Source: Anaerolineae bacterium
GTDB lineage: Bacteria; Chloroflexota; Anaerolineae; B4-G1; DUEL01
Reading direction: 5' to 3'
Assembly: GCA_041082215.1 (NCBI GenBank)
Contig: JBDOIF010000025.1
Coordinates: 1-33,119 of the forward strand
DNA: 33,119 nucleotides
Shown here: positions 17,314 through 32,018 of the stretch, one piece after another
How the letters are laid out: the number at the start of each line of letters is the position of its first letter
Position numbering within the stretch: position 1 is the stretch's first letter
The notes under the pieces: model-generated
What the model saw: the letters and a program-made list of their open reading frames with translations, nothing else
Told to the model about the DNA's origin: nothing
Database searches by the model: none
Program-made: the position numbers and the translations under genes

Positions 17314-17342
17314 ATTTTACCACTGGTCCGCCCCGCTGTCCA
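17314..17342 (-). promoter_or_regulatory. Sigma70-type promoter of hypF
   Basis: TGGACA-17 bp-TAAAAT with TGn extension, 12 bp before the ATG. Confidence 0.65.
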
Positions 17343-17357
17343 CTTCCCGGCTTACTC

Positions 17358-17549
17358 AGGTGTATTTCAGTCTGGGGGCGAGATATCCCTGGCCCGGGCC
17401 GGACCTGGGGAAACACGAATAGCGGGAATGGAAACGAATACCGCGAATGGAGCAGGGATCCCTCCCGTTCGCGGTATTCGGGCCATTCGTGGGATTCGTG
17501 ATCCACCGGCGGGCGAGAGGACCCCTCGCCCCGAAATTGAAATACGCCC
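17358..17549. mobile_element. MITE copy A1 (192 bp)
   Basis: 25-bp terminal IRs AGGTGTATTTCAGTCTGGGGGCGAG / GGGCGTATTTCAATTTCGGGGCGAG. 9-bp flanking repeat GGCTTACTC / GGCTTGCTC. A closely similar inverted copy lies at 31782-31973. Confidence 0.92.
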
Positions 17550-17568
17550 GGCTTGCTCCCTGCGCCTC

Positions 17569-18777
17569 CTACGCTCCGAACTTGGTCAGCCGCCCAGCGT
17601 GGGCCAACGCCAGCGCCATCAGGTCCACATGGTGGATATGGCCCAGCCCTCCGGCCATGCACGCCCGCTCGCCGAATGTCTTCACCCCGTCGGGGCGACA
17701 ATACCTCGACCAGAGAAGGACCGGCAGCTCGTGCCAGGAGTGGGCCTTCCACTTGGCGGGGGTGGAGTGGTCGCCGGTGATCACCACTACATCCGGCCCC
17801 AGGGCAAGGATCTGCGGCAACAGCCGGTCAAAATGCTCGATGACCTCCACCTTCCGGTCGAAATCCCCGTCCTCCCCGGCGCTGTCGGTCTTCTTTACAT
17901 GGAAAAAGAAGTAATCGTACTCTGCCCAATGGGTTTTAAGGGTCTGTACCTCATCCTCGACCGTATCGCCGGTGGGGAGGACCTCCATCCCGGCCAGTTT
18001 GGCCACCCCCCGGTACATCGGGTAGGTGGCAATGGCGGCACAACGGAGCTTGTAAATCTCCGGCATCTTGGGCAACCCCGGATCCCTGGCGATGCCGCGC
18101 AGGTTACATCCGTTGGCAGGGTGCTCGTCGGCCAGGAGCTGGCGGGCCTCCGCCAGCCACCGGTTGAGGAGGTCAGCGGTGGGGGCTGCCTCTGGCCGTA
18201 GCGGCTCTACCGGCAACGGCGGTACGCCCGTCCGCTGCGGGTCCGTCTCCGTCAGGCCGTCCTCCAGCCCCTCGCCGCGCAGCACCAGGACGAAGCGGTA
18301 ATCCTTCACCGGCTCGACGAAAACTTCCACACCGGGCAGACGGATGGCCCGCAGCTTTTCACACAGCCGGGCGCATACCTCGGTGGGAATACGGCCCGCC
18401 CGCCGGTCGGTGATCACCCCACTTTCGGGGTCCAGCGTGCAGAAATTCCCCCGCGCGGCGATGTCCTGAGGTTGCAGGTCGAACCCGATACCCAGCGCCT
18501 CCAGCACGCCACGGCCGATCTCGTACCGGAGCGGGTCGTAGCCGAACAGGGCCAGATGGCCGGGGCCACTGCCAGGGGCGATGCCGGGCGCAATCGGGGT
18601 GCTCATCCCACAGATGGAGCCAGCCGCCAGGGCATCCATGTTGGGCGTGTGAGCTGCCTCCAGCTCGGTCGGGCCATCAGGGGTCAGCGGCAGCCCTCCC
18701 AGACCGTCCAGCACCACCAAGAGAATCTTGCTCTCTGCCTGGACAACCAGTTCGCGCAGCAACTCTAATCGGTCCAT
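17569..18777 (-). CDS. apgM: 2,3-bisphosphoglycerate-independent phosphoglycerate mutase (ApgM/archaeal type)
   Basis: LLVVLDGLGG, TELEAAHTPNMD, PGSGPGHLALFGYDP, GRGVLEALG, AARGNF, DRRAGRI, ITGDHSTP, HSW. Start ATG 18777 behind GAGGAG. Confidence 0.93.
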   Translation of the reverse strand: MDRLELLRELVVQAESKILLVVLDGLGGLPLTPDGPTELEAAHTPNMDALAAGSICGMSTPIAPGIAPGSGPGHLALFGYDPLRYEIGRGVLEALGIGFDLQPQDIAARGNFCTLDPESGVITDRRAGRIPTEVCARLCEKLRAIRLPGVEVFVEPVKDYRFVLVLRGEGLEDGLTETDPQRTGVPPLPVEPLRPEAAPTADLLNRWLAEARQLLADEHPANGCNLRGIARDPGLPKMPEIYKLRCAAIATYPMYRGVAKLAGMEVLPTGDTVEDEVQTLKTHWAEYDYFFFHVKKTDSAGEDGDFDRKVEVIEHFDRLLPQILALGPDVVVITGDHSTPAKWKAHSWHELPVLLWSRYCRPDGVKTFGERACMAGGLGHIHHVDLMALALAHAGRLTKFGA

Positions 18778-18809
18778 GCTTTTCCTCCTCTGAATCCTCC
18801 AGGTGCTCC

Positions 18810-18838
18810 ATACTACTTCCATTTTGCCCAGGCGTCAA
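18810..18838 (-). promoter_or_regulatory. Sigma70-type promoter of apgM
   Basis: TTGACG-17 bp-TAGTAT. Confidence 0.7.
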
Positions 18839-18852
18839 GGGGGAAAACCACC

Positions 18853-19019
18853 GGGTGCATTTCAGTTTTTTGGAAAATGTGGTAACTGCCGGCGCTGGAG
18901 GTTAATTGCTCTGCCTGGCCCTCACCCCACGGGAGGGGGTAGGGGGAGGGGTGAGGGATCAAACCACCATCAGGTGGGCGAAATTAAGGTGTAACTCGCC
19001 ACCAAACTGAAATGCACCC
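18853..19019. mobile_element. MITE type B (167 bp): termini related to MITE A, different interior
   Basis: Perfect 16-bp IR GGGTGCATTTCAGTTT. 7-bp direct repeat AACCACC on both flanks. Internal CCCTCACCCC...GGGGTGAGGG palindrome. Confidence 0.9.
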
Positions 19020-19034
19020 AACCACCTGGTCCAT

Positions 19035-19063
19035 TTGCCCCTTCCGCCGGTTTCTGGTATCAT
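19035..19063 (+). promoter_or_regulatory. Sigma70-type promoter of the metallophosphoesterase operon
   Basis: TTGCCC-17 bp-TATCAT with TGn extension, 11 bp before ATG 19075. Confidence 0.6.
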
Positions 19064-19074
19064 CCCCTGGTGCG

Positions 19075-19566
19075 ATGAGGATCGGGATACTTTCAGATAC
19101 CCACGACAATCTGGCGAACACCCGAAAGGTGGTCGAGTTTTTCGCCCGGGAGGGAATCGCCACCCTCCTCCACTGCGGGGATGTCTGTGGCCCGACCGTC
19201 GTGGAGGCGCTGGAGGGCTTCACCGTCTATTTCGCCCAGGGGAACATGGACCGTATGCCAGCCCTGGGCCTGGCGGTGGAGGCGATCCACGGGCCAGGCC
19301 GGCTGGCCCGTCTGCATGAGCTGGTGCTGGACGGTTTTCTTGTGGCGTTGATCCACGGCGACGACGAGCCGCTGCTACACCACCTGATCCAGAAGGGCGG
19401 GTACGCCTACATTTTCCACGGCCACACCCACCGGCGGGCCGTCCGACAGGCAGGCCCCACCCGTATCATCAACCCCGGTGCGCTGGGGGGAATCCGGTGG
19501 GAATCTCGCTCGGCCTGTTCCGTTGACCTGGAGACGGGGGAAGTCCGTCTCATTGAGTTAAAATAA
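19075..19566 (+). CDS. Metallophosphoesterase, YfcE/MJ0936 family
   Basis: SDTHDN, HCGD, GNMD, HG, GHTH, INPG. Confidence 0.92.
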   Translation: MRIGILSDTHDNLANTRKVVEFFAREGIATLLHCGDVCGPTVVEALEGFTVYFAQGNMDRMPALGLAVEAIHGPGRLARLHELVLDGFLVALIHGDDEPLLHHLIQKGGYAYIFHGHTHRRAVRQAGPTRIINPGALGGIRWESRSACSVDLETGEVRLIELK

Positions 19567-19589
19567 CTGCTGGAGGCAAGGGCAATACG

Positions 19590-20021
19590 ATGAAGGACGA
19601 CCTCTTTCGTTTCTCCACCACCCTGGAGGTGCGCTGGCGCGATCTGGACGCCCTGGGGCACGTCAACAACGCTGTCTATCTCACTTATCTGGAGCAGGCC
19701 CGCATCCACTACATGCAGGAAATGGGCCTGGGTTTCCGGAGTCTGGAGGACGTGGGGATGATCCTGGCCGAGGTGAACTGCACCTACCATTCCCCCCTCT
19801 CACTGGGAGAACGGGTGACCATCTGGGTGCGCATCAGCGAGCTGCGCAACTCCAGCTTCATCTTCGAGTATCGGCTGGAGGGAGAGGACGGCCGCCTGGC
19901 AGCCACCGCCCGCAGCGTGCAGGTCTGCTACGATTACCGGGCCGGCCGGTCGGTGCCGATCCCGGACCCATGGCGGGCGGCCATCACCGCCTACGAACCG
20001 GGACTTGGGGGAGGGGTATGA
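19590..20021 (+). CDS. Acyl-CoA thioesterase (4HBT/YbgC hot-dog fold)
   Basis: VRWRDLDALGHVNNAVYLTYLEQAR. Confidence 0.93.
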   Translation: MKDDLFRFSTTLEVRWRDLDALGHVNNAVYLTYLEQARIHYMQEMGLGFRSLEDVGMILAEVNCTYHSPLSLGERVTIWVRISELRNSSFIFEYRLEGEDGRLAATARSVQVCYDYRAGRSVPIPDPWRAAITAYEPGLGGGV

Positions 20022-20644
20022 CGACGATCCTGTTGATCCGTCATGCGGCTAACGACCTGCTGAGGGAAAAACGGTTGGGGGGGAGGCTGCCGGGAATCCA
20101 CCTTAACGAGGAGGGACAGGCACAGGCCCTGGCGCTGGCGGAGCGACTGGCGGGAATCGGGCTGACGGCGATCTACTCCAGTCCGATGGAACGGACGCTG
20201 GAGACGGCAGAGCCGGTCGCGGCCCGCCTGGGTCTGGAGGTGCGGGTCCATCCTGGGCTGCACGAGGTGGATTGCGGCCGGTGGAGTGGCCAGCCAGTGG
20301 AAAAGGTGCGCCGCCGCCGACACTGGCAGGTGATGGCCCTCTACCCTTCCGGCACTCCCTTCCCCGGCGGGGAGAGCGCCTGGGAGGTGCAGAAGCGGAT
20401 CGTGGCCGCCATCGAGGAGATCCGCGCTGCCCATCCTGAGGAGACCGTGGCTGCCTTTTCCCACGCCGATCCGATACGGGTAGCGGTTGCCTACTACGTG
20501 GGCCTCCCCCTCGACCTCTTCCGCCGGTTGAGCGTTGCGCCGGCTTCCCTCACCGTTCTTTCTTTCAAGGGGCCGGTCCCCCAACTGGTGTGCCTGAACG
20601 ACACCAGCCATCTGCCCCGCCTGGAGGGCGGGAAGGGAGGATAG
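20018..20644 (+). CDS. Histidine phosphatase family protein (MSMEG_4193-like phosphomutase)
   Basis: LIRHA, YSSPMERTLETA, EVDCGRW, FPGGES, SHADPI, NDTSHL. ATGA overlap with the thioesterase gene. Confidence 0.9.
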   Translation: MTTILLIRHAANDLLREKRLGGRLPGIHLNEEGQAQALALAERLAGIGLTAIYSSPMERTLETAEPVAARLGLEVRVHPGLHEVDCGRWSGQPVEKVRRRRHWQVMALYPSGTPFPGGESAWEVQKRIVAAIEEIRAAHPEETVAAFSHADPIRVAVAYYVGLPLDLFRRLSVAPASLTVLSFKGPVPQLVCLNDTSHLPRLEGGKGG

Positions 20645-20645
20645 A

Positions 20646-21167
20646 GTGTCACCAGAGTTTCTCGGCCTGAGTCGTGTGGACTTCATCACAGTGGGGACGG
20701 TCGGCCCGCCGGGCCAGCGCACCTTTTACCTGCAGGCCGGGCAGGGGGACCTGGTGGTCAGTCTGATCATCGAAAAGGAACATGCCGCCGCCCTCTCTCT
20801 GGGGGTCCAGCAGCTTCTGGAACAACTGGGGGGCGTCCCTGAAGGCACCCCTATCCCCACCGAGCTGGAACTGCGGGAACCCCTGCGCCCCCTCTTCCGG
20901 GTCGGCAGCCTGGGGCTGGGATACGATCCCGACGAGGACGCGCTCGTCCTGGTCGCCCGGGCGCTGGTCCAGGAAGGAGCAGAAGCCCCCGAGGTCCATT
21001 TCTGGTGCTCCCGGGCGCAGATGTACGCGCTGGCCGAACACGCTGCCGAGGTTGTGGCAGCGGGCCGGCCCCAATGCCCCCTCTGCGGCGAGCCGCTTGA
21101 ACCGGGCGAGCGCCACGTCTGCGTGCGGGGCAACGGGCGCAGGCTGCTTTTCCACGCCGACGAATGA
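20646..21167 (+). CDS. DUF3090 family protein
   Basis: VGTVGPPGQRTFYLQA, EKE, FRVGSLGLGYD, VVAAGRPQCPLCGEPL...HVC...NG. Confidence 0.88.
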   Translation: MSPEFLGLSRVDFITVGTVGPPGQRTFYLQAGQGDLVVSLIIEKEHAAALSLGVQQLLEQLGGVPEGTPIPTELELREPLRPLFRVGSLGLGYDPDEDALVLVARALVQEGAEAPEVHFWCSRAQMYALAEHAAEVVAAGRPQCPLCGEPLEPGERHVCVRGNGRRLLFHADE

Positions 21168-21237
21168 GGACCGCAAATACTACAGAAAAAGCATGAAGAG
21201 CACAGAGGAAAAAAATTCCATGAGGAGGGAAAAATAC

Positions 21238-22806
21238 ATGCGACGCTGTCTCTTTCTTCTGCTGGTATCCGCCATTGTCCTTCTGGTCAGTTGTGCACCG
21301 AAGCCTGAAGGCCGCATCGTCTACGGCCTGACCCTGGCCCCGTCGGGGATTGACCCCCACGTCAACGCGTCTTCCGAGCTGGGGATCCCCCTCACCTCGG
21401 TCTACGACACGCTGGTCTATCAGGACCCCGCGACCGGGGAGTTCGTCCCCGGCCTGGCCGAGCGGTGGGAGGTCTCCGAAGATGGCCTCATCTACACCTT
21501 CTACCTCAAGAAAGGGGTGAAGTTCCACGACGGCACCCCCTTCAACGCCGAGGCGGTCCGCTTCAACCTGGATCGGATCACCAGCCCCGACCTGGCCTCC
21601 CAGAAGGCCCGCTTCATGCTCGGCCCCTATGAACGGACCGAGGTGGTGGACAAGTATACGGTCCGCATCGTCCTGAGCGAGCCGTTCGCCCCGCTGCTGG
21701 GTTCGCTGAGCCAGGTCTATCTGGGAATGGCCTCCCCGACAGCGGTGGAGGAGTGGGGGGGCGACTACCAGCTCCACCAGGTGGGCACCGGCCCGTTCAG
21801 CTTCGTCGAGTACATCCCTGGGGATCATCTCCTGTTGCGATACAACCCGGATTACGCCTGGGGGCCGCCGGTCTACCAGCACAGGACGGCCCAACTGGCC
21901 GAGGTGGAGTTCCGCTTCTTCACAGACCCGGCCACCCGCTCTCCCGCCCTGGAGACGGGGGAGGCGGATGTGATGGGGGAGATCCCGCCACAGGACGCCG
22001 TCCGACTGACAGAGAGCGCCGACTTCCGCATCGAGGCGGTGGCCCTGCCCGGCGCTTCCTTGATGATGTTTATGAACACCACCCGCCCCCCGCTGGACGA
22101 CATCCGGGTGCGGCAGGCCCTCCTCTACGCCACCGACCGACAGACAATCGTCTCCACCATCTTCCGGGACACTTCCCCGGCAGCCTATGGCCCGCTGACA
22201 GCGGTGACCTTCGGTTATGACCCGGCCGTACAGAGATATTACCCCTATGATCCGGAGAAAGCGGCAGCACTGCTGGCAGAGGCCGGATGGGCTGATTCCG
22301 ACGGCGACGGGGTCCTCGATCGGGATGGGGAGCCACTGGTGCTGGATATGGTGCTGATGGGATGGGGGTATATGCCGGAGATCGGCCAGCTCCTGGCCGC
22401 CCAATGGGCAGGGCTGGGAGTGGCCGTGGAGAGCCGGGTAGTGAGCTACCCGGAGGCGCTGGAGATCGGCGGCAGCGGCAGCCACCATCTGCTCCCTTTC
22501 ACCCTCTCCGACAGCGACCCCGACATCCTGCGCAAGTTCTTCCACTCCCAGGCCCTCTTCAACTGGTCGCTGGTGGAGGATGCGGAGCTGGATGGCTGGC
22601 TGGAGGAGGCAGCCCGCACGTCCGATCCGGCCCGACGGCTTGCCCTCTACAGCCAGGTCCAGCAACGGGTGATGGATCAGGCCCTGGTCATCCCCATCCG
22701 CGATTACGTCAACCTGAACGGCATAAACAACCGGGTGCAGGGGCTCCGCTTTGACGCGCGGGGGTGGTTTCCCTGGCTGATTGATGTGACGGTCGGCGGG
22801 CAGTGA
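21238..22806 (+). CDS. ABC transporter substrate-binding lipoprotein, family 5 (peptide/nickel)
   Basis: Lipobox LVSC; PGLAERWEVSEDGLIYTFYLKKGVKFHDGTPFNAEAV; GTGPF. GAGGAGG RBS before ATG 21238. Confidence 0.93.
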   Translation: MRRCLFLLLVSAIVLLVSCAPKPEGRIVYGLTLAPSGIDPHVNASSELGIPLTSVYDTLVYQDPATGEFVPGLAERWEVSEDGLIYTFYLKKGVKFHDGTPFNAEAVRFNLDRITSPDLASQKARFMLGPYERTEVVDKYTVRIVLSEPFAPLLGSLSQVYLGMASPTAVEEWGGDYQLHQVGTGPFSFVEYIPGDHLLLRYNPDYAWGPPVYQHRTAQLAEVEFRFFTDPATRSPALETGEADVMGEIPPQDAVRLTESADFRIEAVALPGASLMMFMNTTRPPLDDIRVRQALLYATDRQTIVSTIFRDTSPAAYGPLTAVTFGYDPAVQRYYPYDPEKAAALLAEAGWADSDGDGVLDRDGEPLVLDMVLMGWGYMPEIGQLLAAQWAGLGVAVESRVVSYPEALEIGGSGSHHLLPFTLSDSDPDILRKFFHSQALFNWSLVEDAELDGWLEEAARTSDPARRLALYSQVQQRVMDQALVIPIRDYVNLNGINNRVQGLRFDARGWFPWLIDVTVGGQ

Positions 22807-22900
22807 GTGGATCGGTGACCGGGTGGCTTGGTGAACGGGTGATTGGGGGTCAGGTGACTGGGTGATTGGGGGATTGGGGGATTGGGGGATGGGGATGGGG
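22807..22900. repeat. G-rich degenerate 8-mer tandem repeats (GGKGATTG)
   Basis: GGTGACCG GGTGGCTT GGTGAACG GGTGATTG ... GGTGACTG GGTGATTG GGGGATTG GGGGATTG. Confidence 0.8.
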
Positions 22901-23827
22901 GTGGGATATGCGGGACGAAGGCTGCTGGGAGCGGTCTTCGTCCTCTGGCTTTCTGCCACGCTGGCTTTCTTTGCCCTGAAGCTGACGCCAGGCGACCCAG
23001 CCCAGGCACTGCTGGCTGCCTCAGGGGCGACCGCCGAGGAGGTAGCAGAGCGACGGGCACAGTTGGGGCTGGACGACCCGCTCCTGCTCCAGTACATCCG
23101 CTATATCCTCGCCATCGGCCAGGGCGACCTGGGCCGCTCGTGGCTGCACGGCCGGCCGGTGGGCCGGATGATCCTGGAGCAGCTCGGGCCGACGGCCGAG
23201 CTGGCCGCTGCGGCGATGGTGGTGGGAGTGGTGCTGGGAACAGCCCTGGGGGTACTGGCCGCTGTCCGTCGGCGGACATGGGTGGATACCCTTGCGACGG
23301 CGCTGGCCGTGGTGGGCCTCTCCACTCCCACCTACTGGTCCGGCCTCCTGGCCATCCTCCTCTTCTCCCTCCGCCTCCGCTGGCTGCCCGCTACCGGCGA
23401 GGGGGGAGCACGCCACCTGGTGCTGCCGGCACTGGTGCTGGGTTTCTCCCTTTCCGGCTCCATCGCCCGGATGGTGCGGGCGCAGGTAGCAGAGGTGCTG
23501 GGCTCCGCCTTCGTGCTGGCCGCACGGGCACGGGGGTTGCCCAACCGACGGGTCCTCTTCGTCCACGTCCTCCGCGCCGCCGCGGGACCGGCCCTGGCAG
23601 TCACCGCCCTCCAGTTCGGCTTCCTCCTGGGCGGCGCCGTGGTCACCGAGTCGGTCTTCGCCCGACGGGGCCTGGGGAAGCTGGCAGTGGAGGCCATTCT
23701 CTGGCGGGACCTGCCAGTGGTGCGGGGAGTGGTGGTGGTGGGAGCACTGGCCTACGTCCTGGTTAACCTGATGGCGGACCTCCTCCACGCCTGGCTCGAT
23801 CCCCGGCTGCGGGAGGAGACGGGATGA
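22901..23827 (+). CDS. ABC transporter permease (DppB/OppB/NikB-like)
   Basis: PGDPA, LGLDDPL..QY, GDLGRS, ARARGL (EAA-like loop), GGAVVTESVF, RDLPVV, LDPR. Start is 22895 or 22901. Confidence 0.92.
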   Translation: MGYAGRRLLGAVFVLWLSATLAFFALKLTPGDPAQALLAASGATAEEVAERRAQLGLDDPLLLQYIRYILAIGQGDLGRSWLHGRPVGRMILEQLGPTAELAAAAMVVGVVLGTALGVLAAVRRRTWVDTLATALAVVGLSTPTYWSGLLAILLFSLRLRWLPATGEGGARHLVLPALVLGFSLSGSIARMVRAQVAEVLGSAFVLAARARGLPNRRVLFVHVLRAAAGPALAVTALQFGFLLGGAVVTESVFARRGLGKLAVEAILWRDLPVVRGVVVVGALAYVLVNLMADLLHAWLDPRLREETG

Positions 23828-24654
23828 TCGAATGGACCGCCCCTCCCCGTCGCCCCCTCCTGCGGCAGCCAGCAGCCCTGGCCGCGCTGATCTGGCTAAC
23901 GCTGGCGGGGGGCGCTGCCATCGCGGCCCCCGTGCTGGCCCCCGCCGGCCCCCTGGCCGCGGCTCCGGAGCGCTCCCTCCTCCCGCCAGGTCCGGAAGCG
24001 GTGCTGGGGACAGACCTCCTGGGCCGGGACATCCTCACCCGACTCCTCTGGGGAGGGCGGTGGACCCTGCAAATGGGGTTGATAGGAATGGCTGTGGCGG
24101 TGGGGCTGGGGCTTCCGCTGGGACTGACAGCGGGGAGCCTGGGGGACCGGGTGGACGTGCTGCTGATGCGGCTGGTGGACGGTCTGCTGGCCTTCCCCGG
24201 CCTCCTTCTGGCGATGGCCGCGGTGGCGGTGCTGGGAACGGGGTTGACACCGGTGGCTGTGGCGGTAGGACTGGCCGCAGCCCCACCCTACGCACGGGTG
24301 GCCCGATCTGTAGCCCTGGAGGTGCGGGCGCAGCCCTATATCGAGGCTGCGCGGGCCACAGGGGTGCCCCCGTTCCGTATCGCCCTTCGCCACATCCTGC
24401 CCAACGCCGCCCCCGCCCTTATCGCCTTCGCCACCACACAACTGGGCTGGGTCCTTCTCAACGGGGCCGCCCTCAACTTCCTGGGGCTGGGTGTGCCGCC
24501 AGGCACGCCGGAGTGGGGAGCGATGCTGGCCGAGGGCCGGGCCTACCTGCGGGAAGCTCCCTGGGCAGGAGGGTTTCCCGGCCTGGCCCTTACCCTCACC
24601 GTCCTGGCAGCCAACCTCCTGGGGGACGGGCTGCAGGAGGCGTTAGGGGTATAA
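23824..24654 (+). CDS. ABC transporter permease (DppC/OppC/NikC-like)
   Basis: LGTDLLGRDILTRL, YIEAARATG, HILPN, FLGLG..P.TPEWGAML, NLLGDGL. Confidence 0.93.
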   Translation: MIEWTAPPRRPLLRQPAALAALIWLTLAGGAAIAAPVLAPAGPLAAAPERSLLPPGPEAVLGTDLLGRDILTRLLWGGRWTLQMGLIGMAVAVGLGLPLGLTAGSLGDRVDVLLMRLVDGLLAFPGLLLAMAAVAVLGTGLTPVAVAVGLAAAPPYARVARSVALEVRAQPYIEAARATGVPPFRIALRHILPNAAPALIAFATTQLGWVLLNGAALNFLGLGVPPGTPEWGAMLAEGRAYLREAPWAGGFPGLALTLTVLAANLLGDGLQEALGV

Positions 24655-24689
24655 ACTCCAGGAGCTGCGTGCGCGGATTTCATCCCCAA

Positions 24690-24763
24690 GCAGGCCTGGC
24701 GGCCTGCCCCACGTAACGCAGGCTGTCAGCCTGCGGATAAACAGGCCTGGCGGCCTGCGCTAC
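24690..24763. repeat. Cluster of three GTAG-type REP-like palindromes
   Basis: GTGGGGCAGGCCGCCAGGCCTGC (minus, 24690-24712), GTAACGCAGGCTGTCAGCCTGCG (plus, 24713-24735), GTAGCGCAGGCCGCCAGGCCTGT (minus, 24741-24763). Confidence 0.8.
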
Positions 24764-24795
24764 GCGGATAAGTATTACCTGCAGGCCGGAAAACA

Positions 24796-24824
24796 GTGCG
24801 ACGCTCCTTCGGGGAGCGTCGCAC
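24796..24824. terminator. Perfect 12-bp hairpin between convergent genes (terminator or REP-like)
   Basis: GTGCGACGCTCC-TTCGG-GGAGCGTCGCAC, followed on the minus strand by TGTTTT. Confidence 0.6.
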
Positions 24825-24842
24825 CGTTGTTCCCTCCGCCGA

Positions 24843-27584
24843 TTATGGGGAGTAGTTGCGCAGGACGAGGGGCAGGTAGATGTAGTAGGTGTGCTCATCA
24901 TCGTCCAGCCAGGCCGGCAGGCCATCCCCATCGGCATCCCTTGTCCCCTCCTGAGCATCGGGCAGGCCATCCCCGTCGGCGTCCTCGTCCAGATAGTTGG
25001 GAATCCCGTCCCCATCCACGTCGTTATCCTCACAGTTGGGAATCGAGTCGTTGTCGGTGTCGGCGGTGCAGTTGGTGGCCAGCTTGTCGTCGCTCCCGCC
25101 ACTGTAGTACTCGTCGTCGTCCGGGATCCGGTCGTTATCGGAGTCAGCGTCCAGATAGTCCGGGGTATGATCCCCATCGGCATCACCCGCTCCTTCGACG
25201 TTGTCGGGGATGCCGTCCCCGTCCGAATCGGTGTCCAGGTAGTTGGGGGTGGAGTCGCCGTCGGCGTCGCCCGTCCCCTCGACGCTGTCGGGGATGCCGT
25301 CCCCATCGGCGTCGGTGTCCAGGTAGTTGGGCGTTCCGTCGCCATCGGCATCGCCGGCCCCCTCCACCTCATCGGGGATGCCGTCCCCATCGGCATCGGT
25401 ATCCTGGAAGTTGGGCGTGCCATCCCCATCGGCGTCGCCAGCCCCCTCCACGTCGTCGGGGATGCCGTCCCCGTCGGCGTCGCCGCCGGGTGGCTGGACA
25501 ACCACCTCAGCGATCTGATAGCGGCAGAGGGAGTGAGCAGGGTCGGAAAGGATGCCGGTCATCTCGCAGAAGGGAAGCTGATGGTCCGGGTCCACCGGAT
25601 CGGTGGTGCTGATGCCGTCGTAGCTGAACACCGCCGATCCGATGCGCTCCCCATCAACGGTGACCAGCATTCTGGAGTAGGTGATCACGTTGCCGCTCTG
25701 GTCCACCTCGTACTCCCGCAGCTCAAACCAGGTGGTCGTGCCGGTGGACAGGTTTTCGATGTCCGTGTAGTTGATCCCCGGAGGCCCCCAGATTCCCTGT
25801 TCAGGGCTGGCGCTGGCCTGGGCGTAGGCGGTGCCCTGGCAGGACCCGTCAGGGCAGGGGACGCGGGAGGTGGCGTAGGTGGTGATGGAGACAGTAAGGT
25901 GGGCGCTGCTGGTGACCGTCGTCGTGCCGCTGAGGACCTCGACAGCGCCGAACCAGCGCTGGGAGACACGGGCGTCGCCGGGCGCGGTGCCGAAGTCGTT
26001 ATCCTGATGGACGGTTGCCTTGTTCAGCGGAGCGGTATCCCGGGAGAAGATGTCGTCGTTGCCGTTGGCATCCAGGAGGTTGCCGGCGATGTAGGGCATG
26101 GAGAGCAGGTCGGCGGCGTGGTTGGCCTCGCTGAAGTAGACACGGTTGGCGATGCCGAAGTCCCTGTTATAGGTGATGGTGTTGGTCAGGATGAAGGGGG
26201 AGGCCCCCCAGTTGTAGATGCCGGTGAGGGTGTTGCCGGAGATAACGTTATAGGCGATCAGGTTGTCGCCAGTAGCGGGGGTGGTGGAGACAGTGTTGCG
26301 GTGGGTGAGCTGGTTGACGATGCCGTAGAGGTCGTTGCCGACGATGGTGTTGCTGATCACCCGGTTGCCCTGGGGCGGGTCGTTGAAGCCGGAGAGCCGG
26401 ACCCCGTGGTAGTTGTACCGGATGATATTGGCCCGGCCGGTGGCGGCATCGGTGTTGGTGAAACCGATGAAGTTATCGTGGGCTCCGTCCTCGATCTCGA
26501 TCCCGCCGTCCCCGGCGTCGGGGTAGGCCCCGTTGCCCAGGTCGGCGCCGGCGGGGTTGGTGCCGATATAGTTGCCAAAGATGCGGTTGGCGTAGCAGTT
26601 GGGGCCATCGAAGAAGATGCCGGCGCGGGTGTTGCCGCCGATGATATTGGCATCGTCATCGCTCAGGCCGCCGATGAGGTTGTCGTGCCCGCCGAAGCCG
26701 GAGCACTGGATGCCGTCGCGGCCGTCGGAGTAGCCGGTGCCGTTGGGGATGGCGGCGGTCCCGGCGGCGTTGGTGCCGATCCGGTTGCCGGCGATCACGT
26801 TCCCAAAGGCCCCTCCCTCGATCAGGACGCCGTTGCGCCGGTTGCCTGAGATGGTGTTGCCCCGGATGGTGGCGGTCATCGCTCCGTACAGATAGAGGCC
26901 GTCCCGATCGTTGGGCTGGGCAGCGCTTCCATCGGCAGTCACCCCGATCAGGTTGCCCACAATCTGGACACTGGCGGCACTGTTCACCCCGATGCCGCTG
27001 TAGGCGTTACCGGAAGCACGGCTGTTGATAACCCTGGTGCCATTGGCGTTCTCGACGTAGACCCCGTAGTAGCCGTTGGAGAGGACGGTGGTATGGCTGA
27101 TCAGGCAGTCGTTGACAGTGTACGATGCCCCCTGGAGATAGATGCCGTGGCCGGTGAATTGCTGGATGACGAGGTTCTGGATCACGTTGCCGGAGGAGCG
27201 GACGCGGATGCCGCTGATCCCGGAAGTGCTGCCGCCATAGGAGAGGGTAACGTCGGGCGTGTCATCGCCGTCCACATCCCCGTTGATGGTGGTGCTGACG
27301 CTACCGGATCCCTCAATGGTCAAAACGGAACCGGTAATAACGATGGTCTGACCGGCCAGGGAGGGATCGAATGAGATCGTGTCGGGGCCGGGATTGGCAT
27401 TGGCGGCAGTGATCGCCTCCCGTAATGAGCAGTGGGTCGCGTTGCAGGTGCCGTCGTTGACGTCGTCGGTGCTGTTGACCGTGTAGCTGCCAGCGCGGGT
27501 AGGCGACGCCAGCAAGAGCACAAAGCCCAGGGCCAGGGCCATGGCGATAAAGAAGGGAACAAAAGCCTGTCTCATCCTCTGCAT
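24843..27584 (-). CDS. Secreted/surface protein: CSLREA domain, right-handed parallel beta-helix, thrombospondin-type-3-like Ca-binding repeats, C-terminal YIYLPLVLR motif
   Basis: Signal peptide; VNSTDD...CNATHCSLREAITAAN; repeated 'I.GN.IG.N..G' beta-helix turns; DADGDG repeats. ATG 27584 behind GGAGG. Confidence 0.9.
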   Translation of the reverse strand: MQRMRQAFVPFFIAMALALGFVLLLASPTRAGSYTVNSTDDVNDGTCNATHCSLREAITAANANPGPDTISFDPSLAGQTIVITGSVLTIEGSGSVSTTINGDVDGDDTPDVTLSYGGSTSGISGIRVRSSGNVIQNLVIQQFTGHGIYLQGASYTVNDCLISHTTVLSNGYYGVYVENANGTRVINSRASGNAYSGIGVNSAASVQIVGNLIGVTADGSAAQPNDRDGLYLYGAMTATIRGNTISGNRRNGVLIEGGAFGNVIAGNRIGTNAAGTAAIPNGTGYSDGRDGIQCSGFGGHDNLIGGLSDDDANIIGGNTRAGIFFDGPNCYANRIFGNYIGTNPAGADLGNGAYPDAGDGGIEIEDGAHDNFIGFTNTDAATGRANIIRYNYHGVRLSGFNDPPQGNRVISNTIVGNDLYGIVNQLTHRNTVSTTPATGDNLIAYNVISGNTLTGIYNWGASPFILTNTITYNRDFGIANRVYFSEANHAADLLSMPYIAGNLLDANGNDDIFSRDTAPLNKATVHQDNDFGTAPGDARVSQRWFGAVEVLSGTTTVTSSAHLTVSITTYATSRVPCPDGSCQGTAYAQASASPEQGIWGPPGINYTDIENLSTGTTTWFELREYEVDQSGNVITYSRMLVTVDGERIGSAVFSYDGISTTDPVDPDHQLPFCEMTGILSDPAHSLCRYQIAEVVVQPPGGDADGDGIPDDVEGAGDADGDGTPNFQDTDADGDGIPDEVEGAGDADGDGTPNYLDTDADGDGIPDSVEGTGDADGDSTPNYLDTDSDGDGIPDNVEGAGDADGDHTPDYLDADSDNDRIPDDDEYYSGGSDDKLATNCTADTDNDSIPNCEDNDVDGDGIPNYLDEDADGDGLPDAQEGTRDADGDGLPAWLDDDEHTYYIYLPLVLRNYSP
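24900..25482 (-). repeat. Coding tandem repeats (84-bp/28-aa DxDGDG units)
   Basis: [32 protein letters not shown] unit repeated. Confidence 0.85.
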
Positions 27585-27718
27585 ACCAACCTCCTTATAA
27601 TTCCTGCCACGGAGTACAGAAAACACGGATTCCTACACATCAGCCCGGAGCCAGAAGCCCCGGGCTGATGGCTCAAACCCCTTTACAAAGGTCGAACCAT
27701 CCTCCGGACTCCCATCCT

Positions 27719-30700
27719 CTAGTTCCTGTTGGCCAGGATGACGGGGAGGAAGATGCGGTAGGTGTAGGCGGTCGTGCCCCCCTCGTCGTCTGGATCGAGG
27801 AAATCGGGGATCCCGTCGCCGTCCGAATCGCAGGTGCCCTCTTCGGCGTCCGGCTTCCCATCGCCATCTGAATCCAGGTCCAGGTAGTTGGGCGTGCCAT
27901 CGCCGTCGGCATCCCGGTCCCGCTCGTCCACGGCCCCGTCCCCATTGGCGTCGGTGTTCCACTCCACCCGGTCGAGGATTCCATCCCCATCGGAGTCGGA
28001 GTCCAGGAAGTTGGGGGTGCCGTCCCCGTCAGCGTCGCCCGCCCCCTCAACCGCATCGGGGATCGTGTCGCCGTCGGAGTCCAGGTCCAGGAAGTTGGGG
28101 GTGCCGTCGCCGTCAGCGTCGTCCGCCCCCTCAACCGCATCAGGGATCATGTCGCCGTCGGAGTCCAGGTCCAGGAAGTTGGGGGTGCCGTCCCCGTCGG
28201 CGTCGTCCGCCCCCTCAACCGCATCGGGGATCGTGTCGCCGTCGGAGTCGGAGTCCAGGTAGTTGGGGGTGCCATCCCCATCGGCGTCGCCGGTCCCCTC
28301 GACAAGGTCCGGGATATTGTCGTTGTCGGAGTCGGAATCCAGATAATCGGGGGTGCCATCCCCGTCGGCGTCGGAGTCATCCGGTACGACGGAGACGGTC
28401 TCTTCGTCCTCATCCCCCGCCGTCCTGCCCAGGCCATCCCGCCCGGTCGCGGAGGCGGCATAGGTGGTGCTCTCCTCCGGGACCACGGTCTCATCGCAGG
28501 AGAAGCTCTCGCCCGGTTCCAGTTCGGCCAGGATGCAGAGGGTGTAATCGTCGGCCGGGTCGGTCGGGGTGCCATTGTCGAAGGCGATGGAGACGTTGTA
28601 GAGAGAGGTGTCGCCGATGTTGGTCGCCACGAAGGTGAGGACCACCGCATCTCCGGCACGGACTTCGCCGACGGAGGGGGTAAGGGAGAGCCGCAGGGCC
28701 GGATGGAGGACGTCGGTGGAGACGGCAGCGTCGTCGGTCACTTCAGCCCCCAGCGCGTCGGTGCCGGCGGCGGTGAAGGCGGCGACGAAGGGATCGCCGT
28801 TCGTCGGGACAACGGCTGTGGGGCTCAGATGGACAACCCCACCCGCCGGGATCGTCCCCTCCCACAGCCCTCCGTCGGGCAGGGGCAGGGCGACCTGGAG
28901 GGGGGTGTTGCCGGTGTTGTGGAGGGTGAGCTGGTAGGCGACCGTATCCCCCTCGTGGGCCATCGCAGGGCCGGTGGCGGAAAGCTCCAGGCCGGGCCGA
29001 AGGATCGCCAGGGTGTGGGTGTCTTCTGCGTGGGCCTCACCCCCCAGGTAGGGTTCGGTGCCGGAGGCGGAGGCGGTGCTTTCCACCACGTCGGCAAGCC
29101 CCGCCGGGACCCGATAGGTCGCCTCGCAGTTTCGGGTCTCTCCCGGCTCCAGGGTGCCGAGGAGGCAGACCTGCCCACCCAGTTGGGGATCGCTCACTGC
29201 GACCCCATCGAGGGGGACGTTGCCGGTGTTGGTGACGGTGTAGAGGAAGGTGAGGTTGTCCCCCTCGTGGGCCATCGCGGGGCCGCTCTTATCCAGGGCC
29301 AGTGAGGGCGCGGGGTGGATGTTGCCCAGCCAGGCGTGGCCGATGCCGCCGGAGCCGACGGTGACCGCCTGGGAGATGCCGGTGGTGGCGTACCAGCCCT
29401 GCTGGAGGACCTCCTGAACGAAATAGCCGCCGGGCTGGATGTCGGGTGGGTTCCGGTCGGGGTGGGAGCTGAAGACGACGGTGCCGTCCTCGCCGGTGGT
29501 CCCTTGCATACCGACGACAATGGAGCCATCCTCCCGGTAGAGCTGGAGCTCCCAACCGCTCAGGGGAGGCTCCCCGGCGTCGGGTGAGCCGTCCCGGTCG
29601 CTGTCCTGGAAGACGTGGCCGACGATCACCGGCAGCTTGATCTGGCCGAAATGGAAGGAGCGGCTCTCGTTGGCGCCGAGGGTGAACTCCACATCCAGTG
29701 GCGTGGTGGCATACCAGCCGGAGAGAAGGGCCTGTTCGATGCGGTAGGTGCCGGCGCTCAGGCCGGTGAACCGGGCAGTGCCGGAGCCGTCGGTGGTCCG
29801 GGTGGCGTGGAGCACCCAGGACAAGCCGACCTGCCGGTACAGTCGGACCGTCCATCCCTCCAGCAGAGGCTCGCCCGCGTCATAGGCCCCGTTCATGTTG
29901 TAATCGTCGAAACTGAGGCTGGAGACGCTCCCGGTGCCGGTCCAGCTAGCGATGGCGTAGGCCTGTACAGGGCCGAGAGTCTGCTGCCCAAGGACCAGCT
30001 TCTGCTTGTTGGCCTCGGTGCCCACAAAGACAGTGCCCACCGGCAGGAGCATCTGGGCAGTGGCGGTGATGTTGGAGGTGACGTCGGGGGTGTCGTAAGT
30101 GAGGGTGAAGGTAGCCTGACCGTTCTCGTCGGTGGTGACGGTGGAGGGGACAGGAGCGCCCAGGTTGGCCTCCAGTGTGACCTCCTGGCCGCTCACCGGT
30201 TCGCCGCCCCGGGTCACCGTCACGGTGAAGAGCTGGGTGGCGTTGACCGGATTGACGGCGCTGGCAGGAGTGATGGAGAGCGCGGGCTGGTCAGCAGTGC
30301 AGGGGTCCTGGGGGACGGCGTTGATGATCTGCCAGGCGCGGGCGCCGACGGTGGTCGAAGCATCGGGGTCAAAGCCGTCGGAGAAATGCCAGACCGCCGC
30401 CTGGCGGGCGGCCATCTCCTGTCCGATGTTGCTCAGCGCATCGGGCCGGTCCGGCCAGGGGGTGTATCCGCTCAGACGGGGTGGGTAGTGGAGGAGGAGC
30501 CAGCGGATCTCACAGGCCATCACCTCATCGCTGGTGATGAACGTGTCCCCTGACCTGACATGATGGCGCAGGTCGGTACAGAAGCTGGCGACCAGGGCTC
30601 CGCCTGTGATCTGGAACTTCATCGTGCCGCCTGTATAGGTAGCAGTGCTCCCGTCGAGCGTGCCCCGGATCTGGCTGTATGGCCCCAGGCCAGTGAACGT

Positions 30701-30790
30701 GCCGGTCTCTCCAGCCGCGAGGGCGAGGGGAACCGATACGATCAGCCAGCCGACAACGCCAACCATCAGGAGAGATCGTAACTTTTTCAT
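27719..30790 (-). CDS. Surface adhesin: thioester (TQXA/TED) domain, two SdrD-B-like domains, three DUF11-like Ig domains, TSP3-like repeats, C-terminal YRIFLPVIL motif
   Basis: Signal peptide; SFCTDL...[12 protein letters not shown]...PVGTVFV...[31 protein letters not shown] and [24 protein letters not shown]; three (T/H)N(T/I)G(N/D) Ig repeats. Start is 30790 or 30811, because ATG 30835 overlaps a TATAAT box. Confidence 0.88.
27790..28380 (-). repeat. Coding tandem repeats (84-bp/28-aa DxDGDG units), central copies nearly identical
   Basis: [18 protein letters not shown](M/T)IPDAVEGA(D/G) repeated. Confidence 0.88.
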
Positions 30791-30997
30791 CCTACCCGAA
30801 CTCCTTCCCATCAATCCGCCTTTCTTCAAGCCCATTATAACTCACCTTACCACTTTCTGCAAGATTAAAAGCAAAATTAATTCTAACCGTATTCTAACTT
30901 TGCTTACCTTCGGGGCAGCCCTGTGACGCCCGTCATTGGCGGGAGGAGGTGTGGAAGGTATACTTAAGGTTAGTTCAGAGAAGAACAGGTTTGGGAG

Positions 30998-31708
30998 ATG
31001 ACGTACTGGATGCTGCTGGCTCATCTGATCGGGGATTATGCCCTTCAGTGGGACGCGATCGCCCGCTGGAAGGCCCGTTCGGTAGTGGGGGTGCTGGCCC
31101 ACGGCGGGATCGTCGCCGCTGTCACCCTGGCAGGCGTGGTGTTGGTGGCTCCCTCCTGGTGGCCCTTTGCGTTGCTGATCGGCGCCATCCACACCGGGGT
31201 TGACCTCTTCCGGGCCCGCTTCCTGCAGACGACGGATCCTTTCCGGGAGTGGGTATGGTTCCTGGCAGACCAGGCCGCCCATTTAGGGACGATCCTGTTG
31301 GTGGTGGCCTGGGCCGGCCAGCTTGCTGGAGGTGGGCAGACCCCGGCGGCGAACAGCCCGGTTGCCCGCCGCTGGCTGGCTGTAGCGATTGGCTACCTCC
31401 TTCTGGCCCAGCCAGCCTGGGTTTTCCTCCGGCTGACGGTGCGGGCGCTGGGAGGGGGGCAGGCCGCCCCCCCCCTGGGGGAAGGGGAGAAGTATGGCCC
31501 AATGGTGGAGCGGCTCCTGATCGCCAGCGGAGTGCTCCTGGGCCACGTCTATCTGGTTCCCCTGGCGATCCTGCCTCGATACCTGGCCTCTTACCGCACA
31601 GGGGAGCAGGGATCATACGCCTGTGCAACGGTAGCCGGCCGCGTGGCCGAAACTGCTCTCAGCATCCTCCTGGCGCTGGCCGTCGGGCTGACCCTCCGCC
31701 TGTTCTAA
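30998..31708 (+). CDS. DUF3307 family membrane protein
   Basis: LLAHLIGDYALQ...K...LAHG...IHTGVD...FLADQAAH, and a later 'YGPMVER' motif. Confidence 0.82.
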   Translation: MTYWMLLAHLIGDYALQWDAIARWKARSVVGVLAHGGIVAAVTLAGVVLVAPSWWPFALLIGAIHTGVDLFRARFLQTTDPFREWVWFLADQAAHLGTILLVVAWAGQLAGGGQTPAANSPVARRWLAVAIGYLLLAQPAWVFLRLTVRALGGGQAAPPLGEGEKYGPMVERLLIASGVLLGHVYLVPLAILPRYLASYRTGEQGSYACATVAGRVAETALSILLALAVGLTLRLF

Positions 31709-31781
31709 ATGTAAGTTGACCGTCGGGACGCGGAAGATGCATCCGTGTTCTCTGTGTCCCTATAGTGAAACCCAAAACAGG

Positions 31782-31973
31782 GAGCGTATTTCAACTTCGG
31801 GGCGAGGGGTCCTCTCGCTCGCCGGTGGATCGCGAATCCCACGAATGGCCCGAATGCCGCGAACAGGAGGGATCCCTGCCCCATTCGCGGTATTCGTTTC
31901 CATTCGCGCCATTCGTGTTTCCCCAGGTCCGGCCCGGACCAGGGGCATCTCGCCCCCAGACTGAAACACGCCT
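31782..31973. mobile_element. MITE copy A2 (192 bp), inverted relative to A1
   Basis: IRs GAGCGTATTTCAACTTCGGGGCGAG / AGGCGTGTTTCAGTCTGGGGGCGAG. 9-bp flanking repeat CAAAACAGG / CGAAACAGG. Confidence 0.92.
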
Positions 31974-31989
31974 CGAAACAGGGGGCGGA

Positions 31990-32018
31990 TTGACGGGAGG
32001 GGCAGGGCAGGTTACAAT
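31990..32018 (+). promoter_or_regulatory. Sigma70-type promoter of the Crp/Fnr gene
   Basis: TTGACG-17 bp-TACAAT, 21 bp before ATG 32040. Confidence 0.75.

What the first reader, a model, noticed from the sequence alone, without database searches (positions are those of the whole stretch)
17314..32018. MITE family that inserts 14-16 bp upstream of sigma70 -35 boxes
Seen: three elements share a ~25-bp terminal IR (consensus GGGYGYATTTCARTTTNGKGGCGAG) and have target duplications (9 bp with one mismatch for A1 and A2; 7 bp perfect for B). Each abuts a -35/17-bp/-10 promoter pointing away from it: A1 is 15 bp from the hypF -35, A2 is 16 bp from the crp -35 (same element end facing the promoter), and B is 14 bp from the apgM -35 and 15 bp from the phosphoesterase -35. 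Established: Mutator-like prokaryotic transposases of the TnGBS/ISLre2 group insert about 15-17 bp upstream of sigmaA -35 boxes with 8-9 bp duplications, and similar targeting was reported for some related groups. Inference: these are non-autonomous, promoter-targeting derivatives in a Chloroflexota-like genome. They would mark active promoters genome-wide and replace UP elements.
Basis: partly seen in the sequence, partly recalled or inferred. Interest (0 to 1): 0.8.

Follow-up and report, generated by a model that had tools for sequence, protein, structure and literature searches.

The report
Promoter-seeking miniature transposon family
A 192-base non-coding hitch-hiker transposon, present about 86 times in this hot-spring Chloroflexota genome, lands 14-17 bases upstream of gene promoters, as is already known for the transposase family whose ends it carries, so it is a well-supported new example of a known behaviour.

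Summary
A1 (17358-17549), A2 (31782-31973, inverted) and B (18853-19019) have the stated inverted repeats, target duplications and promoter distances.

The pattern is genome-wide. Of 76 paired copies, 54 have a sigma70-type promoter whose -35 box starts 14-17 bp from an element end. Random genome positions give 16 of 5000. Duplications are 8-9 bp. The 14 target bases before the -35 box show no motif, and an unscored extended -10 G appears in 34 of 46 promoters.

A related strain's contig lacks A1, leaving an empty site with the hypF promoter intact.

The ends match ISKra4-family (Mutator-like, p-MULT4) insertion sequences in this genome (contigs C82, C169, and a remnant on C150) and in other Chloroflexota. 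They do not match TnGBS/ISLre2.

Promoter targeting by the ISKra4 group is published (PMC3942029). A MITE form was not found in three literature searches.

This scan reached the same reading three times on other pieces of this genome.

The parts
17358..17549 (+). MITE copy A1 (192 bp; L end at 17358, R end at 17549)
   Evidence: IR hits. 100% query in the genome-wide BLAST, which found 85 full-length copies. Folds as a long imperfect palindrome, z = -7.5. Absent from a related strain's contig.
17349..17357 (.). A1 target-site duplication, left copy (GGCTTACTC)
   Evidence: Pairs with 17550-17558.
17550..17558 (.). A1 target-site duplication, right copy (GGCTTGCTC)
   Evidence: One mismatch to the left copy.
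17314..17342 (-). hypF promoter: -35 TGGACA (17342-17337), 17-bp spacer, -10 TAAAAT (17319-17314). It lies 15 bp from the A1 L end.
   Evidence: The downstream ORF 14812-17301 (-) is HypF by Pfam.
18853..19019 (+). MITE copy B (167 bp), a second sub-family with asymmetric ends. Both ends share GGGTGCATTTCAGTTT, but only the right end has the full 25-bp IR.
   Evidence: Eight full-length copies in the genome.
18846..18852 (.). B target-site duplication, left copy (AACCACC)
19020..19026 (.). B target-site duplication, right copy (AACCACC)
18810..18838 (-). apgM promoter: -35 TTGACG (18838-18833), 17-bp spacer, -10 TAGTAT (18815-18810). It lies 14 bp from B's left end.
   Evidence: The gene 17569-18822 (-) is a cofactor-independent phosphoglycerate mutase by Pfam.
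19035..19063 (+). Metallophosphoesterase promoter: -35 TTGCCC, 17-bp spacer, -10 TATCAT. It lies 15 bp from B's right end.
   Evidence: Pfam Metallophos_2 matches from residue 22 of ORF 19012-19566. ATG at 19075.
31782..31973 (-). MITE copy A2 (192 bp; inverted relative to A1, L end at 31973)
31773..31781 (.). A2 target-site duplication, left copy (CAAAACAGG)
31974..31982 (.). A2 target-site duplication, right copy (CGAAACAGG)
31990..32018 (+). Promoter of the Crp-family regulator gene: -35 TTGACG, 17-bp spacer, -10 TACAAT. It lies 16 bp from the A2 L end.
   Evidence: ORF 32040-32771 has cNMP_binding and HTH_Crp_2 domains.

Best explanation
These are miniature inverted-repeat transposable elements (MITEs). 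They are non-coding internal-deletion-type derivatives that keep only the ~25-bp terminal inverted repeats of Chloroflexota insertion sequences of the ISKra4 family (Mutator-like DDE transposases, p-MULT4).

A transposase supplied in trans binds the two IRs. It integrates the element with a staggered 8-9 bp cut placed so that the element end lies 14-17 bp (mode 16) upstream of the -35 hexamer of a sigma70/sigmaA-type promoter. Either end can face the promoter, with a bias towards the end that resembles the transposase-proximal IR.

Shown here:
- the family and its copy number;
- the target duplications;
- the fixed spacing to pre-existing promoters;
- an empty site for A1;
- IR identity with ISKra4-type insertion sequences.

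Inferred:
- mobilisation in trans;
- how the transposase finds promoters. The published proposal for this transposase group is an interaction with promoter-bound transcription machinery.

The burst is not recent. Copies are about 95% identical to their consensus, and the best-matching parent IS survives only as a remnant.
For: Family size.
- The IR pattern has 190 hits genome-wide, forming 76 paired elements, of which 49 are exactly 192 bp.
- BLAST with the consensus gives 86 full-length and 34 partial matches.

Target duplications.
- A duplication with at most 1 mismatch is present in 54 of 76 copies: 33 of 9 bp, 17 of 8 bp, 2 of 10 bp and 2 of 7 bp.
- Mismatched flank pairs give 0.2%.

Spacing to promoters.
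- The best promoter match (at least 9 bits) starts 14-17 bp from the L end in 39 of 76 copies, from the R end in 22 of 76, from either end in 54 of 76 and from both in 7 of 76.
- Random genome positions give 16 of 5000.
- Of the 53 L flanks with any promoter match within 50 bp, 39 fall in those 4 offsets.

Evidence that the promoters are real and lie outside the element.
- They lie beyond the duplication and differ in sequence between copies.
- The 14 target bases before the -35 box carry at most 0.3 bit per position.
- The extended -10 G, which was not part of the scoring, is present in 34 of 46 promoters.
- A rough codon-position GC heuristic called the coding strand beyond each flank. Genes read away from the element in 46 promoter-bearing flanks and towards it in 5, with 10 unclear. 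Other flanks give 42, 37 and 11.

Empty site.
- A contig of a 96-98% identical strain in run X8 joins 17343 to 17568 with 24 letters in between.
- That is the flanks with one copy of the target (GGCTTCCCC), to within 1 nt.
- The hypF promoter is retained.

Cognate family.
- Contig C82 holds two complete ~1.4-kb insertion sequences. IS-1 scores 211 bits for NF033572 (ISKra4), above the cut-off of 205.
- The IS-1 IR matches the MITE L IR at 20 of 25 positions.
- A remnant on contig C150 matches at 24 of 25 and still encodes the transposase C-terminus running into the IR.
- Contig C169 matches at 19 of 25.

Other genomes.
- A complete IS with this IR type is in another Anaerolineales genome (L052).
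- In other Chloroflexota genomes, 34 of 65 non-redundant ends of this IR type have a promoter at 14-17 bp.

B family.
- The promoter is at the full-IR end in 6 of 8 copies and at the other end in 1 of 8.
- This fits the published idea that IR asymmetry sets orientation.

Literature (PMC3942029: abstract, section 12, passages of 11, 15, 16).
- p-MULT elements have 18-39 bp IRs and 8-9 bp duplications.
- ISKra4-group insertion sequences insert upstream of sigmaA promoters on both sides. [quoted passage not shown]
Against: - 22 of 76 copies show no promoter at 14-17 bp on either side, and 22 of 76 have no recognisable duplication.
- No transposase gene in this assembly has IRs identical to the MITE. 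The nearest complete IS (C82 IS-1) matches only 20 of 25 positions, C169 is frame-broken, and the 24-of-25 match is a remnant. Current mobility is therefore doubtful.
- The promoter model uses recalled E. coli-like frequencies, and no transcription start was mapped.
- The coding-direction heuristic miscalled 1 of 5 known genes.
- The 24 letters at the empty site differ from the window's flanks at about 8 positions and by 1 nt in length.
- The L end begins with A in most copies. The terminal base reported as conserved for p-MULT elements is C (G on this strand).
- Assignment to the ISKra4 group in the strict sense, as against ISMich2 or ISAzba1, was not tested.
Confidence: 0.9

Rival explanations
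1. Insertion is not targeted. Elements land anywhere, or anywhere intergenic, and selection removes harmful copies, leaving those just upstream of promoters.
For: Copies are old, about 95% identical to their consensus, and many duplications have decayed by one base. Selection has therefore had time to act. 22 of 76 copies are not next to a recognisable promoter.
Against: Selection cannot give a 4-bp-wide peak. 39 of the 53 L flanks with any promoter within 50 bp have it at offsets 14-17, where about 4 are expected if offsets were uniform. The same peak is seen in 34 of 38 promoter-bearing ends in unrelated Chloroflexota genomes. It is published for the transposase group (PMC3942029, section 12).
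Confidence: 0.03
2. The elements are, or have become, host regulatory modules. The A/T-rich IR tip would act as an UP-like element or an insulator or terminator placed in front of promoters, and copies would be kept for that function rather than as selfish DNA.
For: The element is a strong 192-nt hairpin, -59.7 kcal/mol with z = -7.5. A1 lies between the 3' end of apgM and the hypF promoter, where a terminator or insulator would make sense. The IR tip AAACTGAAATAC is A/T-rich in a 65% GC genome and would sit near -55 to -65 (inference).
Against: Conservation is uniform across IR and interior (0.95, 0.96, 0.95), with no sign of selected sub-regions. Both orientations occur. A related strain works without A1 at hypF. 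No Rfam family matches. Nothing here measures expression.
Confidence: 0.06
3. The cognate transposase is of the TnGBS/ISLre2 group (p-MULT3), not ISKra4.
For: The genome has one ISLre2-like gene on contig C132, scoring 192-193 bits against a cut-off of 200. p-MULT3 elements share the same targeting (PMC3942029).
Against: No IR-like motif occurs on C132. Every transposase gene found next to this IR type scores far better as ISKra4 than as ISLre2: 162-211 bits against 54-75 bits. The C150 remnant and L052 carry the ISKra4-type C-terminus running into the IR.
Confidence: 0.01

Closest known systems
ISKra4-group insertion sequences (p-MULT4 Mutator-like DDE transposases; e.g. ISKra2/4/5/6; Guerillot et al. 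2014, PMC3942029)
   Same: IRs within the 18-39 bp range and 8-9 bp duplications. Insertion upstream of a sigmaA -35 box at a spacing within the paper's 13-17 bp window, on either side of the element. Present in Chloroflexi. The IR-bearing transposase genes here match NF033572.
   Different: The elements in the window carry no transposase (192 bp and 167 bp) and reach about 86 copies in 3.5 Mb. The paper does not mention MITEs or non-autonomous forms: the terms occur 0 times in its main text. Its supplementary tables could not be read. The Chloroflexota insertion sequences here have the transposase in two frames joined at a T/C run. The passages I read do not describe that feature for the ISKra4 group.
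TnGBS ICEs and ISLre2-family IS (p-MULT3)
   Same: Insertion 15-17 bp upstream of sigmaA -35 boxes. Orientation is linked to IR asymmetry (PMC3942029, introduction and section 12). The asymmetric B sub-family here is likewise oriented, with 6 of 8 copies against 1 of 8.
   Different: A different transposase family, with ISLre2 scores of only 54-75 bits for the IR-bearing genes. TnGBS elements are large conjugative elements of streptococci. By the literature read here, ISLre2 is almost confined to Firmicutes (PMC9208149, passages).
Bacterial MITEs in general (non-autonomous derivatives of DDE insertion sequences)
   Same: Small, non-coding, terminal IRs, target duplication, multi-copy, palindromic fold, intergenic location.
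   Different: As far as I recall, most described bacterial MITEs have a short sequence target or none. This family has a positional target defined by a promoter. That comparison is from my own knowledge, not from a call.

Membership tests
MITE (non-autonomous DDE transposon) | Terminal inverted repeats | tested here: met
   25-bp IRs. The L and R consensus agree at 21 of 25 positions.
MITE (non-autonomous DDE transposon) | Target-site duplication | tested here: met
   54 of 76 copies have a 7-10 bp duplication with at most 1 mismatch (33 are 9 bp, 17 are 8 bp). The control gives 0.2%.
MITE (non-autonomous DDE transposon) | Small, non-coding, multi-copy | tested here: met
   192 bp. 86 full-length and 34 partial BLAST matches in 3.53 Mb. 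No Rfam match.
MITE (non-autonomous DDE transposon) | Ends shared with an autonomous IS | tested here: met
   C150 remnant matches at 24 of 25, L052 IS at 21 of 25, C82 IS-1 at 20 of 25 and C169 at 19 of 25 positions against the L IR. No identical full-length parent is in this assembly.
MITE (non-autonomous DDE transposon) | Presence/absence polymorphism (empty site) | tested here: met
   For A1 only. A contig in run X8 skips 17344-17567 with 24 letters in between.
ISKra4 family / p-MULT4 (cognate IS) | Transposase matches the family model above its cut-off | tested here: met
   C82 IS-1 ORF: 211.1 bits against 205 for NF033572. C82 IS-2 and C169 score 162 bits, below the cut-off but their best family.
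ISKra4 family / p-MULT4 (cognate IS) | 18-39 bp IRs with a conserved terminal C, and 8-9 bp direct repeats (PMC3942029, section 11 passage) | tested here: inconclusive
   IR length and duplication length are met. A terminal C (G on the top strand) is present at the R end and at both B ends, but the L end of most A copies starts with A.
ISKra4 family / p-MULT4 (cognate IS) | Insertion with a sigmaA -35 box 13-17 bp from the IR-genome junction, on either side | tested here: met
   54 of 76 copies at 14-17 bp, with the L end in 39 and the R end in 22.
ISKra4 family / p-MULT4 (cognate IS) | Placement in the ISKra4 lineage rather than ISMich2 or ISAzba1 by transposase phylogeny, and presence of the published targeting signature motif | not tested
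   No reference sequences of the named insertion sequences were on hand. The paper's tables are old .xls files. No Ktedonobacter record was among the 80 loci.
ISKra4 family / p-MULT4 (cognate IS) | The transposase actually moves the MITE in trans | not testable with these tools
   Needs a transposition assay.
TnGBS/ISLre2 (p-MULT3) | Transposase matches the ISLre2 model, and that gene is bounded by the MITE's IRs | tested here: not met
   IR-bearing genes score 54-75 bits against a cut-off of 200. The ISLre2-like gene on C132 (192-193 bits) has no such IR on its contig.

The most novel reading that the evidence does not exclude
The MITE burst placed the same 192-bp palindrome immediately upstream of at least 50 promoters. 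This would have cut them off from older upstream control and given them a shared upstream module: an A/T-rich IR tip near -55 to -65 plus a strong hairpin that stops read-through. The family would then act as a genome-wide promoter insulator or booster as well as a selfish element. Its copies would also provide a ready-made promoter map for uncultured thermophilic Anaerolineae. Because a bare IR pair is enough to be targeted, the system could be turned into a promoter-seeking insertion tool.
Probability: 0.1. Interest if true: 0.6.

Novelty: new member of a known kind. Interest (0 to 1): 0.4.

Why it matters
Promoter-targeted transposition is rare in bacteria, and its mechanism is unsolved.

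This family shows that a bare pair of ISKra4-type ends is enough to be delivered to the promoter-upstream position. It also shows that such an element can reach about 86 copies in a 3.5-Mb genome without disrupting genes.

In practice the copies point to about 60 promoters in an uncultured hot-spring Chloroflexota. From them a consensus can be read without any transcript data: TTGACA, a 17-bp spacer with G at -14, then TATAAT.

It does not change what is known about the transposase group. The behaviour was published in 2014.

Tried and rejected
- **IS256-type transposase** (PF00872): no match in the genome.
- **Rfam, whole window:** no family at gathering score.
- **Empty sites in relatives' genomes:** the MITE was searched for in 40 relatives. 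None has a full-length copy. Only one genome (G006) has 5 weak partial matches, the best 75% over 87 nt. G000 is the only genome of its genus in the set. Orthologous empty sites could therefore not be sought this way, and public runs were used instead.
- **Large composite transposons:** distant solo L and R ends on C112, C100, C7 and C135 share no flanking duplication. They are truncated or solo copies.
- **Selected sub-regions of the element:** IR and interior are equally conserved.
- **Group-level placement of the transposase:** the 80 loci returned by the search for related loci held no named reference IS host. The supplementary tables of PMC3942029 are old .xls or PDF files and could not be read. 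They may list IR sequences, direct repeats and frameshifts that bear on this.
- **Read laying:** runs X1, X2 and X6 only gave contigs that break at the repeats. Nothing is claimed from them.
- (wrong frame) was redone, and (search term too short).
Full report
**Observation**

The window is contig C94 of a 3.53-Mb, 65% GC assembly in 174 contigs.

None of 100 shuffles gave a hit.

- A1 (17358-17549) and A2 (31782-31973) are 192-bp copies in opposite orientation, 93% complementary over 190 nt.
- B (18853-19019) is a 167-bp relative. Its left end shares only the first 16 bases of the IR.
- The duplications are as reported: GGCTTACTC/GGCTTGCTC for A1, CAAAACAGG/CGAAACAGG for A2, and AACCACC/AACCACC for B.
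- The four promoters and their distances (15, 16, 14 and 15 bp) are also as reported.
- Pfam confirms the genes: HypF, a cofactor-independent phosphoglycerate mutase, a metallophosphoesterase and a Crp-family regulator.

**Genome-wide test**

- The IR pattern, allowing up to 4 mismatches, occurs 190 times. It forms 76 paired elements, of which 49 are exactly 192 bp and 64 are 190-193 bp.
- BLAST with the consensus finds 86 full-length and 34 partial matches.
- I scored every outward flank with a simple -35/16-18/-10 matrix. Its frequencies are recalled E. coli-like values.

| Measure (at least 9 bits) | Result |
|---|---|
| L end, promoter at 14-17 bp | 39 of 76 (offsets 14: 3, 15: 12, 16: 23, 17: 1) |
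| R end, promoter at 14-17 bp | 22 of 76 (offsets 14: 3, 15: 4, 16: 12, 17: 3) |
| Either end | 54 of 76 |
| Both ends | 7 of 76 |
| Random genome positions, either flank | 16 of 5000 |
| L flanks with any promoter match within 50 bp | 53, of which 39 fall in those four offsets |

The promoters lie outside the duplication and differ from copy to copy, so they are targets and not part of the element.

I aligned 46 of them, those with a 17-bp spacer, on the -35 box.

- The 14 target bases upstream carry at most 0.3 bit per position, so there is no sequence target in the duplicated DNA.
- A feature that was not scored, G at -14 of the extended -10, is present in 34 of 46.

A rough codon-position GC test called 4 of 5 known genes correctly. 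It finds genes reading away from the element in 46 promoter-bearing flanks and towards it in 5, with 10 unclear. Other flanks give 42, 37 and 11.

Duplications with at most 1 mismatch are present in 54 of 76 copies: 33 of 9 bp, 17 of 8 bp, 2 of 10 bp and 2 of 7 bp. Mismatched flank pairs give 0.2%.

**Mobility**

Public hot-spring metagenome runs hold this locus.

In run X8, from a different study, a 1376-nt contig of a 96-98% identical strain joins 17343 to 17568 with 24 letters in between. That equals the two flanks with a single copy of the target (GGCTTCCCC), to within 1 nt, and it retains the hypF promoter. A1 is therefore an insertion next to a promoter that already existed.

The 24 letters differ from the window's flanks at about 8 positions. 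This is more than in the neighbouring genes.

**Age**

- The 64 full-length copies are about 95% identical to their consensus, equally in the IRs and the interior.
- 20 of the 33 nine-base duplications have one mismatch.
- The burst is therefore old and shows no selected sub-region.

**Cognate transposase**

The genome has no IS256-type gene. It has several p-MULT genes on short contigs.

- **Contig C82** holds two complete ~1.4-kb insertion sequences in tandem.
  - IS-1 (about 265-1711) scores 211 bits for NF033572 (ISKra4, cut-off 205) and 75 bits for ISLre2.
  - Its IR, GGGTGTGTCTTAATTTGGGGGCGAG, matches the MITE L IR at 20 of 25 positions.
- **Contig C169** holds a frame-broken copy matching at 19 of 25.
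- **C150:110149-110173** is a remnant matching at 24 of 25. It is still preceded by the transposase C-terminal coding sequence that runs into the IR.
- **The ISLre2-like gene on C132** has no such IR on its contig.

Reading the sequence, both C82 insertion sequences also sit next to promoters.

- IS-1: 15 bp from TTGACA-17-TAAGAT.
- IS-2: 16 bp from TTGAAA-17-TACAAT.

An exact-pattern scan of species-representative genomes returned 67 loci, almost all Chloroflexota.

- L052 is a complete 1.44-kb IS with both IRs of this type.
- Of 65 non-redundant ends, 38 have a promoter match and 34 of those are at 14-17 bp.

The targeting is thus a property of this IR/transposase lineage across genomes.

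**Orientation**

- The L IR resembles the transposase-proximal IR of the C150 remnant more than the R IR does (24 against 20 of 25).
- The L end faces the promoter more often (39 against 22).
- The B sub-family, whose ends are very asymmetric, has the promoter at its full-IR end in 6 of 8 copies and at the other end in 1 of 8.
- This fits the published proposal that IR asymmetry sets orientation (PMC3942029, section 12 and discussion passage).

**Comparison with what is known**

I read Guerillot et al. 2014 (PMC3942029): the abstract, section 12, and passages of sections 3, 7, 10, 11, 15 and 16. The paper states the following.

- p-MULT elements have 18-39 bp IRs and 8-9 bp direct repeats.
- TnGBS/ISLre2 (p-MULT3) and 13 insertion sequences of the ISKra4 group (p-MULT4, a family that includes Chloroflexi) insert upstream of sigmaA promoters.
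  - For p-MULT3 the promoter signal peaks 16 bp from the right IR.
- The ISKra4 group does so on both sides.

The terms 'MITE' and 'non-autonomous' occur 0 times in its main text.

Three full-text searches returned 2, 6 and 5 papers. They combined ISLre2, TnGBS and promoter, ISKra4 and MITE, and 'miniature inverted-repeat' with these family names. Judged from listings, and for PMC9208149 from passages, none describes such a MITE.

So the behaviour is known, and the non-autonomous high-copy form appears undescribed in what I could search.

Three earlier follow-ups of this scan, on other pieces of the same genome, reached the same reading. My tests agree with them.

**Limits**

- No transcription start was mapped.
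- Trans-mobilisation is inferred.
- The strict lineage of the transposase (ISKra4 against ISMich2 or ISAzba1) and the published signature motif were not tested. The paper's tables could not be read, and no named reference turned up.
- 22 of 76 copies have no promoter at the expected place.

**Verdict**

This is a new member of a known kind.

Noticed in passing
G000 contig C82:650-700 and 2090-2110 (L002); also L049, L052, L075, L084 and L091-L131: In all 6 complete insertion sequences of this lineage that I examined, the transposase is split into an N-terminal ORF (~120 codons, CxxC...CxxC) and a C-terminal ORF in the +1 frame. The two are joined at a T(4-7)C(4-6) run that encodes GFFPLD. Of 58 related loci, 31 have such a run at this spot, mostly Chloroflexota. 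The other 27 (Acidobacteriota, Nitrospirota and others) lack the run, and most of them are open in the C-terminal ORF's frame for more than 100 codons upstream, as a single ORF would be. An inverted repeat lies just 5' of the run in several copies (read by eye). This matches the hairpin-dependent transcriptional slippage at T5C5 described for a Roseiflexus IS, which yields an mRNA lacking one C (PMC5009743, passages).
   Followed up: partly
G000 contig C82:265-3113: Two different ISKra4-type insertion sequences lie head to tail, 9 bp apart. The outer end of each is 15-16 bp from a sigma70-like promoter (read from the sequence).
   Followed up: partly
window 17415-17500 (A1 interior); consensus positions 59-91 and 119-141: The MITE interior carries CGAAT/GGAAT units phased at 9-10 bp (positions 59, 68, 78, 87) and their complements ATTCG (119, 128, 137) on the other arm. 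They are no better conserved than the rest. An earlier report of this scan also left them unexplained.
   Followed up: partly
window 18931-18957 (inside B): A 27-nt G-rich palindromic unit nested in B recurs with 100% identity at 8 other places in the genome, and in longer or near-identical matches at several more. Three of the exact copies lie within 200 nt of a contig start (C23, C24, C77). It looks like a separate small repeat family.
   Followed up: no
window 18777-18822: The first ATG of the apgM ORF (18822, minus strand) lies upstream of the predicted -10 box (18815-18810). The likely true start is the ATG at 18777, preceded by GGAGGA. Pfam matches begin only at residue 32 of the long ORF.
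   Followed up: partly
window 24900-25590 and 27800-28440: 84-bp tandem repeats (9-12 copies, 60-80% alike) lie within two very long minus-strand ORFs (24843-27626 and 27719-30835). The units are rich in GAT/GGC codons, suggesting aspartate- and glycine-rich repeats of large secreted proteins.
   Followed up: no
window 12129-12174 and 22798-22888: Short 7-8-base tandem units (GGTTGCT-type at 12150-12174, GGTGAYTGGG-type at 22800-22888) appear in the repeat list (families D9 and D11).
   Followed up: no
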